From IMG/VR virus record IMGVR_UViG_2648501186_000003, positions 1 through 55,284 of that record: a stretch of DNA of 55,284 bases, one strand, 5' to 3'. The notes under the pieces are model-generated. The model was not told the DNA's origin. It ran no database searches and was given only the letters and a program-made list of their open reading frames with translations. Position numbers and translations under genes: made by a program. This DNA is from a virus. Its lineage: Duplodnaviria > Heunggongvirae > Uroviricota > Caudoviricetes. Numbering within the stretch: position 1 is the first letter of the stretch; every line of letters starts with the position of its first letter. Shown here piece after piece: positions 49,394 through 55,284 of the stretch.

Positions 49394-49469
49394 TGGTGGC
49401 CCCTACCGGACTTGAACCGGTGACCGTGCGATTATGAGTCGCCAGCTCTAACCACTGAGCTAAAGGGCC
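49394..49469 (-). tRNA. tRNA with CAT anticodon (tRNA-Ile2 lysidine-type or Met), CCA encoded
   Basis: Cloverleaf folded by hand: 7-bp acceptor, D-arm GCTCAGTGGTTAGAGC, anticodon loop CTCATAA, T-arm CCGGTTCAAGTCCGG; resembles E. coli ileX as remembered. Confidence 0.8.
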
Positions 49470-50909: not shown

Positions 50910-50984
50910 TGGTGCGGTTAACGGACTCGAACCGCTGACATCCTGCTTACAAGGCAGGCGCTCTACCAACTGAGCTAAACCGGC
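50910..50984 (-). tRNA. tRNA-Thr (anticodon TGT) with an imperfect acceptor stem
   Basis: D-arm GCTCAGTTGGTAGAGC, anticodon stem-loop CCTGC-CTTGTAA-GCAGG, T-arm GGTTCGAGTCC; the 3' acceptor strand appears one nt short. Confidence 0.65.
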
Positions 50985-50986
50985 AT

Positions 50987-51062
50987 TGGCGATGGTGGAT
51001 GGATTTGAACCATCGACCCGTTGATTAACAGTCAACTGCTCTAACCGCTGAGCTACACCATC
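50987..51062 (-). tRNA. tRNA-Asn (anticodon GTT)
   Basis: Acceptor GATGGTG/CACCATC, anticodon loop CTGTTAA, T-arm GATGGTTCAAATCCATC, CCA encoded; lies 2 nt upstream of tRNA-Thr. Confidence 0.8.
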
Positions 51063-51727: not shown

Positions 51728-51744
51728 AAATATATTAGAGCAAT
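51728..51744 (-). promoter_or_regulatory. C1-operator-like site (16/17), overlapping a second divergent 14/17 site at 51716-51732
   Basis: aaatatattagagcaat, at the 3' end of dmt. Confidence 0.45.
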
Positions 51745-54700
51745 ATTGCTATAACGTCATGAGCAACACCACGAGTGTCTCCCTTACAGGACACAGAACG
51801 TCTGGCAAAAAGAGGTTCCACTCTGAAGCCACTGTCCTGATAAAGTTCTCTGATGTTTGGCGCGCCACTGTTAGTAATGAGAACCTTTGCACCTCGGCGA
51901 TGAGCATCCGTCAACAGAGACACCAGGCGTTTTTGCTCTTCAAACTTAAAGTCATGACCGGAATAGTTCGTGAACCCCTCTGTATTGGGGAGCGGTTCAT
52001 ACGGCGGATCGCAAAAGATGACATCTCCTTCTCCGGCAGCTTCAATCACCGCTGCAAAATCACCGCATACAAACTCAGACCGCCCTTCCGCACCGAGGAA
52101 GGCTTCCATCTCCTGTAATGGGAAATACGGAGTTTTATACTTCCCATAACCGACATTGAACTCACCGGCCTGGTTGTAACGCGTCAATCCGTTAAAACAA
52201 TGTCGGTTCAGGAACAAAAACGCCGCTGCGCGATGTAAATCATCATAGACTTGTTTGTTAAACGCATTCCGTACTGCCAGGTATCCTTCCTGTGTGTTGT
52301 AGTCCTGGAAGAAACGATGTGCCAGAGTGATAAGTGAATGCGCCTCGCGTTGCAGAGTCTTGTAAAAGTTAATCAGGTCAGCATTCACATCATTTAGCAG
52401 ATTTTCCTGGTATCCGGCATTCATGAAGACAGCTCCGCCACCAACGAAAGGTTCAATCAGGCGCTTCCCTTCTGGCAAATAGCGAAAGATTTGTTCCAGA
52501 ACACCAAATTTTCCACCAGCCCATTTGAATATGGACCGTTCGAATTCTGTCGCTGGTTTAACTTTTCGCTCTTTTGTTTCACTTCCTTCTTTCTGCCGAC
52601 ATACGGCCTTAGTAATCCGATCGCCAATCCAGCGCATTACTGGTATTGCCATACTATTGCCGATCGCTTTGTAACGCGATCCGTCAGCTGCAAGCATCGC
52701 GGCCTCTTCTTCGCTTAAATCTGGATAGTGATTGCGAAGGTATGCCAGTTCATCTGAAGAAACTTTTTTACGCTTTCCCGTAGGGATCAACGTATGCCAA
52801 TCAGGAAAACCTTGCAGCCTTTCACATTCGACAGGGGTAAGACGGCGCATTCTACCGTCGCCGAGCAATACAATTGGTGCTTCATGGTTACATGTCAAAG
52901 TTGGTGCCGAATTATCGGTTTTTATCTCAGCCCCTCCTTGCCCATGTGCCATGGCAACTATGTTTGTATCATCGCAAGATCTGATAGCGATGTTTGAAGT
53001 ATATCTGGTAGTTTCCTTCCCCTCGCCTCTACTCGGCGCAATATCCCGGCGCACGCCTTCGAACTCAAAAAGTACCGTTGCGGGATCGAGGTCTGTTCGA
53101 GCACTTGCGACAACAAACACGCGTCGGCGTCGTTGTGCCACTCCGAAGTATTGGGCATCAAGGATTCTCCAGGCCACCTTTCGCTGCGGTCCATAAATAC
53201 AACCACACTGCGGCCACTTTGGAGCATGGCAACCGGTTTTGACATCCCACCGCCAGAACGCGTTACTTTTTCCTGATTCAGGTCGCTCACCTGGTTCAAA
53301 TGGCGCATCTTCTCCAGCCAATCCGGCAAGGAAACATCCGAAGGCGTTATCTGCCGATGACAAGACTCCTGGGACATTTTCCCAGACGATAACGGCTGGT
53401 TTGAGAAATGACTCAGCCCGTTTGTCGTCAATTGCATTTGCAAGCTCCACATACTTTAAAGTTAGCGCGCCACGCTCATCATCAAGCCCACCACGTAATC
53501 CCGCGATACTGAATGCCTGACAGTTATGGACCACCGCACCATTGAGGATATAGGAATGATCACCTTCGACTTCTATGTTGTATACAGTATCTAGGCCTAC
53601 CGATTTAAACTCTTTGACTGTTCGTAAAAGCATTCCATGAGCCAATCTTGATTTACGTGACAATTTCTGCGGGCAGATTGTTACCTGATAATAATTCCGT
53701 TGATTTACCACGCGATCCTCGATCACTTTTTTGGGCTCAACTTCAATAAAGCTGACCGAAGAAACATAACCACAAGTCTGTGACACCCCCGCAACGCCCC
53801 AAGCAAGCGCAGGACTAACACTATTAATTCTAAATCCCGCTTTACCACTTGGTGTCCCATCAGTATCAAGATAGCCTTGTAAAAACACATGACGCAATGG
53901 ATGCGACATCACCCATGCAGGGATACGCTTAGCATGGCTTAACTCGCCAAAATGTTCATTAAGCCAATTGGCATAACACGTATCATTCAAGGTTACTTTG
54001 ATGCTCCCTCGGATTTCGCTTGCCACGGAAAATATGTTTTCTGGTATGCGGCAATGAAACTTTCTCAATTTCTGGCAATTTATGCCAAAAACAACCGCCT
54101 TCTTAGATTTACCTCTCCATCTCCTAATATATCCATCGCCAACATAAGCGCCCGCAAGATACATAGCCTGTTCTTCAGACAAGAACCGAGAACAAATATC
54201 TGGAGATGCAATATTGAAATTAGTTAGAGCGCACCATTGATATCCCGGCATATCACATGCTGCTCGCCATTCCGGTTCAGACAACAACTCTCTCTTAAAA
54301 TATGTGCCATTTTTCCGGGTGTTTTGGGCTTTCCACCGAACAGCCAGGAAGGGATGGTCATTGGTTGTTCTTATACCTAAAGGCTGCCCAACGGCATTAA
54401 GTAACCCCGTATTAGCTATTTTTGAACCAACTCTTTTTACTTGTTGTAACCGCCCGAGATGACTGACTACGTAATCGCCAGGGCAAACATCTTCTATTGG
54501 TTTATAACCATTTTTACAAAGAACCATATGCCCCGCGGTAAAACATGGTGTTCCCCCGACGAGCACGTCAGGGGATTCGATTTCCCCAGCCAAGACTTTT
54601 TTGGCAAGTTTTGTCATGTCGCCAAGGTTGGCGACATGGGGCCAGCGGAGCGCAAGAACGGCCGATGGAAAAGGCTCGATTTCAGCAAACCACGCCGGAC

Positions 54701-54776
54701 GCATACCCAACGTTTCCCAGGCAATACTCGCGGCTTCAATTCCACTGCAAACAGATCCATAGCACAGCTCTTTCAC
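51735..54776 (-). CDS. dmt: Bifunctional DNA methyltransferase: N-terminal C5-cytosine methyltransferase interrupted by an intein, C-terminal Dam-like N6-adenine methyltransferase
   Basis: C5 motifs: GGTP|intein|CQAFSIAG (PCQ) and ENV. Dam motifs: [23 protein letters not shown] start. Confidence 0.85.
53523..54545 (-). mobile_element. Intein (341 aa) with LAGLIDADG homing-endonuclease domain, inserted in the PCQ motif of the C5-methyltransferase
   Basis: Starts CFTAGHMVL...PIEDV, has a TxxH block (TTNDHPF), [10 protein letters not shown] and [10 protein letters not shown] motifs, and ends [21 protein letters not shown] followed by Cys (+1). Confidence 0.8.
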
Positions 54777-55284
54777 TGCTTAGCCTCTCCACCAAGGGCA
54801 TTTACCAGAGCATCAACCAGGCACGAAATTTCACTGGTCAACAGGAAGAAATCTGCGTCCAGTCGCTGCGCTACATCTTCACTATCAATATCAGAGTTCT
54901 GATCAAGCAATTCATCCGCAAATTTGACGCTGGTAAGGCTGAAGTTATGGTCCAGTGTAAATTTAATGCGGTTCTGCCAGTCGAGTGCCAACTTAGTGAC
55001 GAGCTTGCCAGCTTCCAGGTGTGTGGAAATTTCATCGCTTCCCAAATCCTGCTTTTTCACTCGGGCAATACCGCCATCCTCAAGCACTGCCTTAAGTTCT
55101 GCCGCATCCCCCATTTGAAATCCCTGTGGAGCACTACCATCACGTACCCAGTCGGTCAGCGTTAATTCAATGGGATTTTCAACACTCAGGGGAACAACAG
55201 GAAGAGAACCCAGAGACTTACGCATAAGCGCGAGCATATCCTCTGCCTGCCGCGCGCTGGCATTGATATAGATACGTTTAGTTC
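54773..55284 (-). CDS. hrdC: RdgC-like recombination-associated protein, 5'-truncated by the window edge
   Basis: C-terminal 154 aa resemble E. coli RdgC as remembered ([25 protein letters not shown]...); frame is open to nt 55284. Confidence 0.7.

What the first reader, a model, noticed from the sequence alone, without database searches (positions are those of the whole stretch)
53523..54545. LAGLIDADG intein splitting the catalytic PCQ motif of a phage C5-cytosine methyltransferase
Within the 1013-aa Dmt ORF, the C5 motif is interrupted as ...VGGTP-[341 aa]-CQAFSIAG. The inserted segment has all intein hallmarks: N-terminal Cys, a TxxH block, two LAGLIDADG-like motifs and a C-terminal ...GAVVHN followed by Cys+1. 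The +1 Cys is the predicted catalytic cysteine of the methyltransferase, so activity would depend on splicing. The C-terminal half is a Dam-like domain.
Basis: partly seen in the sequence, partly recalled or inferred. Interest (0 to 1): 0.7.

Follow-up and report, generated by a model that had tools for sequence, protein, structure and literature searches.

The report
Homing intein inside P1-type phage methyltransferase
The 341-codon segment is a genuine self-splicing protein element (an intein carrying a homing endonuclease) that splits the catalytic Pro-Cys motif of the cytosine-methyltransferase half of the P1-family Dmt protein; it is a textbook-type intein, but one that appears undescribed although about 3% of complete E. 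coli genomes carry it.

Summary
The dmt ORF (51735..54776, minus strand, 1013 aa) carries a 341-aa in-frame insertion at 53523..54545 between Pro77 and the Cys of motif IV (GGTP|CQAFSIAG).

- **Precise insertion.** Phage P7 Dam (672 aa) and reference P1 Dmt (754 aa) lack exactly these 341 codons.
- **Intein features.** The insert has Cys1, TNDH, two LAGLIDADG motifs with their acidic residues, [18 protein letters not shown] and Cys+1. It passes the curated cut-offs of Hint_2, LAGLIDADG_3 and TIGR01443. The model (pLDDT 92) matches PI-SceI, TliVMA and PI-PfuI.
- **Spliced product.** In-silico splicing restores a complete C5-methyltransferase aligned to M.HhaI. A Dam domain follows.
- **Population.** The intein is in 152 of 5,426 complete E. 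coli genomes at 99% identity or more; 337 genomes have the empty site. In 29 sampled alleles the intein-adjacent base is A in all 21 occupied alleles and T in all 8 empty ones. In one E. fergusonii allele at most about 20 bp on each side travel with the intein. This fits homing, although ordinary recombination is not excluded.
- **Family.** Relatives down to about 28% identity sit at the same site in C5-methyltransferases of many bacteria and phages.

Splicing and cleavage are untested.

The parts
51735..54776 (-). dmt precursor ORF (GTG start, 1013 aa, 112.9 kDa): N-extein + intein + C-extein, stop codon included
   Evidence: It is 99.0% identical over its full length to dmt of OP279344.1, and the annotated neighbours are those of the P1 family (hrdC upstream, tRNA-Asn/Thr downstream).
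54546..54776 (-). N-extein, aa 1-77: C5-methyltransferase motif I (CSGIEAAS, 54726-54749) up to Pro77 of motif IV
53523..54545 (-). Intein, 341 aa, 38.3 kDa, pI 9.35, G+C 43% (N-extein 55%, window 48%)
54354..54545 (-). N-terminal splicing region: Cys1 (54543-54545) to block B TNDH (54354-54365)
   Evidence: Hint_2 matches intein aa 1-49. C1, T61 and H64 are invariant in the 13-sequence family alignment.
53856..54158 (-). LAGLIDADG homing-endonuclease core: motif 1 LAGAYVGDG (54132-54158), conserved Lys206 of the intein, motif 2 LQGYLDTDG (53856-53882)
   Evidence: PF14528 at 33.2 bits. D137, K206 and D229 are conserved. The model also matches I-SceI and I-DmoI.
53523..53585 (-). C-terminal splicing region: block [13 protein letters not shown] and block G GAVVHN (His340, Asn341)
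   Evidence: TIGR01443. Aligns to the C-terminus of the Spl DnaX mini-intein 7cfv.
53520..53522 (-). Cys+1: the splicing nucleophile and, after splicing, the Cys of the PCQ motif IV
52638..53522 (-). Rest of the C5-methyltransferase: motif [19 protein letters not shown] (53364-53384), VIII QRRRRVF (53115-53135), variable target-recognition region (about 52848-53054), [17 protein letters not shown] (52803-52847), X GNSMAIPV (52638-52661)
51738..52523 (-). Dam-type N6-adenine methyltransferase domain (FVGGGAV 52428-52448, DPPY 51999-52010)
   Evidence: PF02086 E 7.5e-57; TIGR00571 at 251 bits
52747..52765 (-). Sequence identical to the late promoter LPdam2 predicted in the phage P7 record; it lies inside dmt, upstream of the Dam domain
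   Evidence: This is an annotation-level prediction only.

Best explanation
The segment is a canonical class-1 intein with a nested double-motif LAGLIDADG homing endonuclease. It is inserted between Pro77 and the catalytic Cys of motif IV of the C5-cytosine methyltransferase half of the bifunctional Dmt protein of a P1-like phage.

**Inferred protein-level mechanism.**
1. The 112.9-kDa precursor is translated.
2. Cys78 attacks the Pro77 carbonyl (N-S acyl shift).
3. The thioester is passed to Cys419 (+1).
4. Asn418, helped by His417, cyclises and releases the 38.3-kDa intein.
5. An S-N shift re-forms the Pro-Cys peptide bond.

The product is a 74.6-kDa, 672-aa Dmt with an intact [12 protein letters not shown] catalytic loop. 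C5 methylation should therefore require splicing. The C-terminal Dam domain is a separate module and may work without splicing.

**Inferred DNA-level mechanism.** The released intein is expected to cut intein-less dmt alleles at the ...ACG CCT|TGT CAG GCA... junction. When two P1-type elements meet in one cell, repair from the occupied allele would then copy the intein in (homing).

**Shown here:** the precise insertion, all sequence hallmarks, the fold, restoration of the methyltransferase motifs on in-silico splicing, the presence/absence polymorphism and the flank haplotype pattern.

**Inferred, not shown:** that splicing occurs, that the endonuclease cuts, and that the C5 domain is an active enzyme.
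For: **Precise insertion**
- The 341-codon insertion is absent from P7 Dam and from reference P1 Dmt, and present in RCS47 and OP279344.

**Sequence and fold**
- Family scans pass curated cut-offs: Hint_2, LAGLIDADG_3 and TIGR01443.
- AlphaFold2 with a 13-sequence alignment gives pLDDT 92.4 and pTM 0.89.
- The best Foldseek matches in the PDB are all endonuclease-containing inteins: PI-SceI (E 5e-17), TliVMA, PhoVMA, PI-PfuI and PI-PkoII (PDB 2cw7). The endonuclease domain also matches I-SceI and I-DmoI.
- C1, T61, H64, N323 and N341 are invariant, and D137, K206 and D229 are invariant or nearly so, in relatives down to 24-29% identity.

**Spliced product**
- The in-silico spliced product aligns with M.HhaI across PCQAFSI and carries motifs VI, VIII, IX and X.
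- The PHROG methyltransferase profile phrog_116 matches in two stretches around the insert.

**Population**
- The intein occurs in 152 of 5,426 complete E. coli genomes, all at 99% identity or more. The empty junction occurs in 337 genomes. It also occurs in Salmonella, Shigella, E. albertii and E. fergusonii plasmids.
- The base next to the insertion (third position of the Pro codon) is A in 21 of 21 occupied alleles and T in 8 of 8 empty alleles (Fisher p = 2e-7).
- One intein-linked proximal haplotype differs from the common empty allele at six consecutive synonymous third positions.
- The E. fergusonii allele is P7-like up to -22 and from +21 on, yet carries a 99.4% identical intein.
- The intein sits on at least two different target-recognition-domain backbones.
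- In E. albertii the intein differs from the window's by 1.1%, while the Dam region of the same gene differs by 7%.
- There are no stop codons and all motifs are intact in 10 alleles examined; variable sites are 11 synonymous and 15 non-synonymous.

**Family**
- The close family (182 50%-identity clusters at E of 1e-30 or better) sits at the same Pro|Cys site of C5-methyltransferases in genomes and viral contigs.
Against: - No experiment. Splicing, cleavage and C5 methylation are all untested.
- The -1 residue is proline, which most studied inteins tolerate poorly (PMC6486613).
- Block F has Asn where many inteins have Asp.
- Pfam Intein_splicing (PF14890) stays below its cut-off (18-22 bits against 35.8), and Hint_2 passes by only 0.1 bit.
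- dmt is dispensable enough to be pseudogenised in some occupied alleles: a nonsense codon in L097, an early stop (codon 8) in L096, and an IS200/IS605-family insertion in LH50. Selection for splicing may therefore be weak.
- About 15 non-synonymous to 11 synonymous polymorphisms indicates only mild constraint within the population.
- The flank pattern is what homing predicts, but ordinary homologous recombination between co-resident P1-type plasmids would also break up linkage with distance.
Confidence: 0.85

Rival explanations
1. The intein is splicing-competent but its endonuclease is no longer active. It is a resident passenger. Its patchy distribution and mosaic flanks come from ordinary homologous recombination and vertical descent among P1-type plasmid prophages, not from current homing.
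For: All occupied alleles share one nearly identical intein and the same adjacent base, which fits a single invasion followed by recombination. Two thirds of alleles remain empty despite apparently compatible target sequences. Non-synonymous polymorphisms are concentrated in the endonuclease part, intein aa 144-284.
Against: Both LAGLIDADG acidic residues and the conserved Lys are intact in all 10 alleles examined, and conserved across the wider family. In the E. fergusonii allele the donor tract is very short (about 20 bp or less on each side) around a 1-kb insert. Double-strand-break repair explains this more readily than two independent crossovers. The intein is far less diverged than the surrounding gene in E. 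albertii.
Confidence: 0.2
2. It is a degenerate intein that no longer splices. The C5-methyltransferase half is permanently disrupted. The gene is kept only for its Dam domain, which works within the unspliced protein or from an internal start.
For: Pro at -1 is unfavourable for most inteins (PMC6486613). The C5 activity of P1 Dmt is only 'perhaps' in the P1 and P7 records. Only the Dam function is documented in the review I could read (PMC12707154). An internal late promoter upstream of the Dam domain is predicted in P7 and conserved here. Some occupied alleles are pseudogenes.
Against: Every residue needed for the four splicing steps is present and invariant in 10 alleles and across distant relatives. 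The whole family, in hundreds of different methyltransferases, keeps Pro (or Glu/Asp) at -1 and a nucleophile at +1, so it must have adapted to this junction. The extein retains all C5 motifs. No frameshift or stop has accumulated in the 1,023 bp.
Confidence: 0.1
3. It is not an intein but a native accessory domain of the methyltransferase, or a bacterial intein-like (BIL) domain, or a DNA-level element such as an intron carrying a free-standing endonuclease gene.
For: None beyond the fact that Hint-fold domains also occur in non-splicing proteins. A BIL domain (2lwy) appears in the PDB sequence search only at E = 0.87.
Against: Orthologues at 97% identity lack exactly this segment. The reading frame is continuous through both junctions. 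Cys1, His-Asn and Cys+1 are present, unlike typical BIL domains. The insert sits in the most conserved motif of the host. The fold matches true inteins from end to end.
Confidence: 0.01

Closest known systems
PI-SceI (S. cerevisiae VMA1 intein) and the archaeal TliVMA, PhoVMA, PI-PfuI and PI-PkoII (PDB 2cw7) inteins
   Same: Same two-part architecture: a Hint splicing domain interrupted by a double-motif LAGLIDADG endonuclease. Same class-1 residue set: Cys1, TxxH, His-Asn, Cys+1. These are the best structural matches (E 5e-17 to 1e-8).
   Different: Only 11-16% sequence identity. Smaller (341 aa against 361-537 residues in the matched chains). Different host gene. Pro at -1. None of the biochemistry has been done for this one.
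Inteins of actinobacteriophage DNA methylases (DNMT-1/2 of mycobacteriophages, PMC5050341; methylase intein of PMC9957025; 'C-5' methylase listed in bioRxiv 10.1101/2025.01.02.630785)
   Same: Phage-borne methyltransferase genes invaded by LAGLIDADG inteins, with patchy distribution and evidence of horizontal transfer.
   Different: The described cases are N6/N4 (PF01555) methylases of actinophages. The C-5 host is only listed in a survey, and I could not see its insertion site. None concerns P1-type phages or Enterobacteriaceae.
The wider, apparently undescribed family of inteins at motif IV (Pro|Cys) of C5-methyltransferases found here
   Same: Same insertion point, same CF(T/P)AG...VVHN|C(Q/T) ends, and 28-57% identity. 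Found in Mannheimia, Rhizobiales, Firmicutes, Actinomycetes, Chloroflexota and many IMG/VR viral contigs.
   Different: The P1-family copy is a distinct branch: its closest relative outside the P1-type elements is 57% identical. It sits in a two-domain C5+Dam protein.
Ssp/Spl DnaX mini-inteins
   Same: The best sequence-level PDB match for blocks F and G (7cfv). The Ssp DnaX intein is one of the few reported to splice with Pro at -1 (PMC6486613).
   Different: These are mini-inteins without an endonuclease, in a replication protein. The match covers only 44 residues.

Membership tests
Class-1 intein (Hint splicing domain) | In-frame insertion in a conserved host protein that is precisely absent from close orthologues | tested here: met
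   Alignment A1: P7 (672 aa) and P1 (754 aa) lack exactly aa 78-418. The empty junction occurs in 337 E. coli genomes.
Class-1 intein (Hint splicing domain) | Nucleophile at position 1 and block B TxxH | tested here: met
   Cys78 and TNDH; invariant in the family alignment.
Class-1 intein (Hint splicing domain) | C-terminal His-Asn followed by a Cys/Ser/Thr at +1 | tested here: met
   GAVVHN|C. TIGR01443 scores 25.9-28.9 bits against a cut-off of 15.6.
Class-1 intein (Hint splicing domain) | Curated profile matches for the splicing domain | tested here: inconclusive
   Hint_2 scores 28.5 against a cut-off of 28.4 (barely met). PF14890 Intein_splicing scores 18-22 against 35.8 (not met).
Class-1 intein (Hint splicing domain) | Hint fold with both termini in one domain | tested here: met
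   Model at pLDDT 92.4. Full-length Foldseek matches to PI-SceI, TliVMA and PI-PfuI. I could not measure the distance between the termini.
Class-1 intein (Hint splicing domain) | Autocatalytic protein splicing | not testable with these tools
   Needs expression followed by SDS-PAGE or mass spectrometry.
LAGLIDADG homing endonuclease | Two LAGLIDADG motifs, each ending in a conserved acidic residue | tested here: met
   LAGAYVGDG and LQGYLDTDG. PF14528 scores 33.2 bits against a cut-off of 22.5. D137 and D229 are conserved.
LAGLIDADG homing endonuclease | Pseudo-dimeric alpha-beta-beta-alpha-beta-beta-alpha fold | tested here: met
   The secondary-structure order of the model for aa 124-292, and Foldseek matches to I-SceI, I-DmoI and I-OnuI.
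LAGLIDADG homing endonuclease | Site-specific cleavage of the intein-less allele, and homing | not testable with these tools
   Indirect evidence only: the presence/absence polymorphism, perfect linkage of base -1, short donor tracts, and an intein less diverged than its host gene.
C5-cytosine DNA methyltransferase (PF00145) | Motifs I, IV (PCQ), VI (ENV), VIII (QxRxR), IX and X in order | tested here: met
   All are present after in-silico removal of the intein, and the product aligns to M.HhaI. PF00145 scores 108 bits. TIGR00675 scores 98.4 against a cut-off of 100.65 on the unspliced protein.
C5-cytosine DNA methyltransferase (PF00145) | 5-methylcytosine formation | not testable with these tools
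   The P1 and P7 records say only 'perhaps'.
Dam-type (D12 class) N6-adenine methyltransferase | Profile match above cut-off, with the AdoMet motif and DPPY | tested here: met
   PF02086 at 193 bits; TIGR00571 at 251 bits against a cut-off of 114.85; FVGGGAV and DPPY are present.
Bacterial intein-like (BIL) domain | Hint domain in variable, non-conserved positions, usually without an endonuclease and without the canonical +1 nucleophile | tested here: not met
   The insert lies in the most conserved motif of the host, carries an endonuclease and has Cys+1. The BIL structure 2lwy matches only at E = 0.87.

The most novel reading that the evidence does not exclude
This intein, and the large family at the same site, is a natural specialist for splicing after proline at -1. 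It uses the host enzyme's own catalytic cysteine as the +1 nucleophile. Splicing would then act as a post-translational, possibly redox-sensitive, switch that times C5 methylation (self-protection against restriction) during P1-type phage development. The endonuclease would still drive the element through E. coli phage-plasmids, giving a native homing and conditional-splicing system in the main laboratory host.
Probability: 0.15. Interest if true: 0.6.

Novelty: new member of a known kind. Interest (0 to 1): 0.4.

Why it matters
- **A tractable system.** P1 is one of the most used phages in E. coli genetics, and P1-type phage-plasmids are common carriers of resistance genes. An intact intein in their dmt gene gives a natural presence/absence polymorphism for studying intein homing between plasmid prophages: 152 occupied against 337 empty alleles in complete E. 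coli genomes.
- **Annotation.** The current annotation is incomplete. These 1013- and 1095-aa proteins are labelled simply 'Dam family methyltransferase' or 'Dmt', so predicted product sizes and domain boundaries are wrong.
- **Protein engineering.** The family obligatorily has Pro at -1, a junction that most engineered inteins handle badly. Its members are therefore candidate tools.
- **Biology.** If the C5 domain is active, methylation specificity (the variable recognition region) and its availability (splicing) would be two separately evolving layers of anti-restriction.

None of this changes what is understood about how inteins work.

Tried and rejected
- **Single-sequence AlphaFold2** gave an unusable model (pLDDT 31). 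It was replaced by a run with a 13-sequence alignment.
- **Literature.** I found no paper on a P1/Dmt intein, and none describing an intein at motif IV of a C5-methyltransferase. Hits for 'intein + cytosine methylase' (Pectobacterium phage CB7, the BASEL collection, Thermus phages) concerned inteins in other genes. The P1 genome paper (PMC523184) is not held. The bacterial intein survey PMC4760082 does not mention methyltransferases in its main text, and its supplements are not held.
- **Native domain or BIL domain:** considered and rejected.
- **Assembly artefact:** considered and rejected, because the same insert is in more than 150 independent complete genomes.
- **Selection test.** I tried to read selection from polymorphism within the intein (11 synonymous and 15 non-synonymous sites, mostly singletons). 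There is too little variation for a firm dN/dS.
- **Plus-strand ORFs** overlapping the intein (53952..54227 and 54459..54902) were taken as antisense noise and not examined further.
- **History of the 'empty but intein-like flank' alleles** (181.1, ZYB62, NCCP). I could not decide whether they are precise losses or the ancestral recipient type.
Full report
**1. What is in the sequence**

The window is a P1-type phage (Punavirus). The region 51735..54776 is 99.0% identical over its full length to dmt of Escherichia phage P1 isolate OP279344.1. It is 96-99% identical in parts to P1, P7, RCS47 and SJ46. The neighbours are those of P1: hrdC/rdgC upstream and tRNA-Asn/tRNA-Thr downstream.

The minus-strand ORF 51735..54776 encodes 1013 aa. 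'VGGTP' ends at residue 77. Residues 78-418 (window 53523..54545, 341 aa) start CFTAGH and end GAVVHN. The protein then continues CQAFSIAG. Each motif was re-translated from its coordinates.

**2. It is an insertion, not a native domain**

I aligned five Dmt proteins.
- P7 Dam (672 aa) and reference P1 Dmt (754 aa) run ...[13 protein letters not shown]... without a gap.
- The window, OP279344 (1013 aa) and RCS47 (1095 aa) carry the same 341 residues.
- At the DNA level the intein-free records match 66% of the query. That is exactly the 2,019 extein bases of the 3,042.
- The PHROG methyltransferase profile phrog_116 matches in two stretches on either side of the insert.

**3. It is an intein with a homing endonuclease**

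*Curated profiles*:
- Hint_2: 28.5 bits against a cut-off of 28.4.
- LAGLIDADG_3: 33.2 against 22.5.
- TIGR01443 intein C-terminal region: 25.9-28.9 against 15.6.
- PF14890 stays below its cut-off.

*Sequence matches to solved structures.* Blocks F and G align to the Spl DnaX mini-intein. The endonuclease part aligns weakly to PI-PkoII.

*Structure.* A single-sequence model failed. With a 13-sequence alignment of family members the model reached pLDDT 92.4 and pTM 0.89.
- Its best PDB matches are full-length endonuclease-containing inteins: PI-SceI at E 5e-17, then TliVMA, PhoVMA, PI-PfuI and PI-PkoII (PDB 2cw7).
- These are followed by free LAGLIDADG enzymes (I-SceI, I-DmoI, I-OnuI) for the middle domain.

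*Conserved residues in the family alignment*:
- Invariant splicing residues: Cys1, Thr61, His64, Asn323 and Asn341.
- Invariant or nearly invariant endonuclease residues: Asp137, Lys206 and Asp229.

All of this defines a class-1 intein with a double-motif LAGLIDADG endonuclease.

**4. What it interrupts**

Removing the 341 residues in silico gives a 672-aa protein. Its N-terminal half aligns with M.HhaI through DILCAGFPCQAFSISG / [16 protein letters not shown]. It carries [23 protein letters not shown] and GNSMAIPV. The Cys of PCQ is the catalytic nucleophile of C5-methyltransferases; this is established knowledge for Cys81 of M.HhaI. The +1 Cys of the intein is therefore that residue.

The C-terminal part is a Dam-type domain: PF02086 at 193 bits and TIGR00571 at 251 bits.

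The P1 and P7 records describe the C5 activity only as 'perhaps'. A 2025 review documents only the Dam function, which is needed for pac cleavage in dam-negative hosts (PMC12707154).

The late promoter LPdam2 predicted inside the P7 gene is identical in the window at 52747-52765, upstream of the Dam domain. Dam activity may therefore not depend on splicing. This is an inference.

**5. Likely mechanism**

*Protein level (inferred from the residue set).*
1. N-S acyl shift at Pro77-Cys78.
2. Transfer of the thioester to Cys419.
3. Cyclisation of Asn418, assisted by His417.
4. S-N shift.

This would convert a 112.9-kDa precursor into a 74.6-kDa Dmt and a 38.3-kDa basic intein with pI 9.35.

One unusual point is that the -1 residue is proline. 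Natural and engineered inteins are reported mostly to fail with Pro at -1, with Ssp DnaX an exception (PMC6486613). Since the Pro-Cys dipeptide is the invariant core of motif IV, this whole intein family must cope with it.

*DNA level (inferred).* The endonuclease would cut empty alleles at the junction, and the intein would be copied in during repair.

**6. Population evidence for mobility**

*Prevalence.*
- The intein DNA occurs in 152 of 5,426 complete E. coli genomes, always at 99% identity or more, mostly on P1-type plasmids.
- It occurs in 133 PLSDB plasmids, including Salmonella, Shigella, E. albertii and E. fergusonii.
- A 400-nt spliced-junction query found an uninterrupted site in 337 genomes.
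- About one third of dmt alleles are therefore occupied.

*Flank analysis.* I compared 21 occupied and 8 empty alleles.
- **(a) Adjacent base.** The base immediately before the insertion is A (CCA) in all 21 occupied alleles and T (CCT) in all 8 empty alleles (p = 2e-7).
- **(b) Proximal haplotypes.** Occupied alleles carry one of two proximal haplotypes. One of them (CTG GTG GGA GGG ACA CCA) differs from the common empty allele (CTC GTC GGG GGT ACG CCT) at six consecutive synonymous third positions. This is what a short tract imported from a diverged donor gene would look like.
- **(c) Decay with distance.** Further out the association disappears. The E. fergusonii allele is P7-like up to position -22 and from +21 onward, yet carries an intein 99.4% identical to the window's. 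ST2747 and L101 are similar upstream.
- **(d) Backbones.** The intein sits on at least two different recognition-region backbones, giving 1013 and 1095 aa.
- **(e) Relative divergence.** In E. albertii the intein differs from the window's by 1.1%, while the Dam part of the same gene differs by 7% and the preceding segment by 12%.
- **(f) Clustering of differences.** Between the window and P7, differences are concentrated within about 250 nt of the site: 35 of 477 against 23 of 1,542 (p = 1e-9).
- **(g) Base composition.** The intein has 43% G+C against 55% for the N-extein.

These patterns are what repeated homing with short co-conversion tracts predicts. Recombination between co-resident plasmids could produce part of them, so I keep 'resident, no longer homing' as a rival.

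*Variation within the intein.* There are 26 variable sites (11 synonymous, 15 non-synonymous). There are no stops, and all catalytic motifs are intact in 10 alleles.

*Pseudogenes.* Some occupied genes are pseudogenes: L096 and L097 have early stops, and LH50 is cut by an IS200/IS605-family element. dmt is therefore dispensable in some lineages.

**7. The wider family**

- A word-indexed search found inteins 47-52% identical in other C5-methyltransferases (for example Mannheimia haemolytica). It also found inteins 29-32% identical in Pseudonocardia and Parvibaculum. All sit at the same Pro|Cys (or Glu|Cys) junction.
- The exhaustive search of 1.84 billion cluster representatives gave 4,373 hits at E of 0.001 or better and 182 at 1e-30 or better. 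Of the best 65 inspected, nearly all read xxP|CF...HN|CQxxSxAG.
- In one-genome-per-species contigs, relatives occur in Rhizobiales, Firmicutes, Chloroflexota, Actinomycetes and others. About 40 of 53 inspected are at motif IV, counting the SPD|C...|C(K/T)HFSKAKGG variants.
- In IMG/VR viral contigs, 55 of 64 inspected are at motif IV.
- Only below about 25% identity do other hosts appear, such as ribonucleotide reductases and archaeal proteins.

This is therefore a large, old, site-specific intein lineage of C5-methyltransferases, common in phages.

**8. Comparison with what is known, and novelty**

- The architecture and presumed chemistry are those of PI-SceI-type inteins. Nothing here is mechanistically new.
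- Phage methylase inteins are known, but the described ones are in N6/N4 methylases of mycobacteriophages (PMC5050341, PMC9957025).
- A 2025 preprint lists 'C-5' DNA methylase among actinophage intein hosts without further detail that I could see (10.1101/2025.01.02.630785).
- I found no paper on an intein in P1, in P1-like phages or in Dmt.
- GenBank and RefSeq records call these proteins simply Dmt or 'Dam family methyltransferase'.

I therefore rate it a new member of a known kind. The literature tool does not cover subscription journals, so an earlier description cannot be excluded.

**9. Verdict**

- Interest is moderate (0.4). The element is ordinary in kind. Its value lies in its host (the P1 family, in about 3% of complete E. 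coli genomes), the natural occupied/empty polymorphism, the obligatory Pro(-1) junction, and the dual use of the +1 Cys.

Noticed in passing
window about 52848-53054 (-), and loci L003, L004, L005, L091, L100: The region between motifs VIII and IX of the Dmt C5-methyltransferase (the target-recognition region) exists in at least three, possibly four, unrelated length variants among P1-type elements: backbones of 672, 754 and 862 aa, and perhaps 807 aa in L100. This suggests swapping of methylation specificity. The intein was seen on the 672-aa and 754-aa backbones.
   Followed up: partly
L003 (AF234172.1, reference P1), dmt codon 74: The reference laboratory P1 has Trp instead of the otherwise invariant Gly four residues before the catalytic Cys (VWGTPCQ against VGGTPCQ). 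This might impair its C5-methyltransferase.
   Followed up: no
window 52747-52765 (-): The sequence of the late promoter LPdam2 predicted in the phage P7 record is exactly conserved inside dmt, upstream of the Dam domain. The Dam half might therefore be made on its own, independently of splicing.
   Followed up: partly
P0011; L114 and L115 (2501-3520): In Mannheimia haemolytica a 47% identical intein with intact ends is followed by a truncated, unrelated C-extein (CQSDKGGTVK...). This cluster is seen on 578 contigs, so an intein is retained in what looks like a broken methyltransferase gene.
   Followed up: no
P0079; L053 (3001-4047); L120 (1734-2780): A Sphingopyxis-type member of the family has Ser instead of Cys at +1 (VVHN|SQGFSLAG). 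Splicing would still be possible, but the spliced methyltransferase would lack its catalytic Cys.
   Followed up: no
P0023 (aa 115 onward): A mini-intein without an endonuclease domain occupies the same Pro|Cys site in another C5-methyltransferase (GGTP|CFPAGTCV...CVHN|CQDLSIAG).
   Followed up: no
L096, L097, L009, L130: Some occupied dmt genes are pseudogenes. L097 has a TAG at codon 62 and L096 an early stop. L009 is truncated next to IS200/IS605-family tnpA and TnpB genes. One distant viral copy of the intein (L130) has three stop codons.
   Followed up: partly
L002 (OP279344.1): A record named 'Escherichia phage P1 isolate del res del mod' (host MG1655 Z1) carries the intein, one base different from the window's, whereas the published reference P1 does not. 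Some P1 stocks used in laboratories may therefore be intein-positive.
   Followed up: no
window 49394-49469, 50911-50984, 50987-51062 (-): Three tRNA genes are called as Met (CAT), Thr (TGT) and Asn (GTT). The Thr/Asn pair is in the usual P1 position just downstream of dmt.
   Followed up: no
phrog_26446 (profile positions 367-698): The PHROG family named 'anaerobic ribonucleoside reductase large subunit' contains an intein related to this one (E 1e-11). A hit to that family can therefore be due to the intein alone.
   Followed up: no
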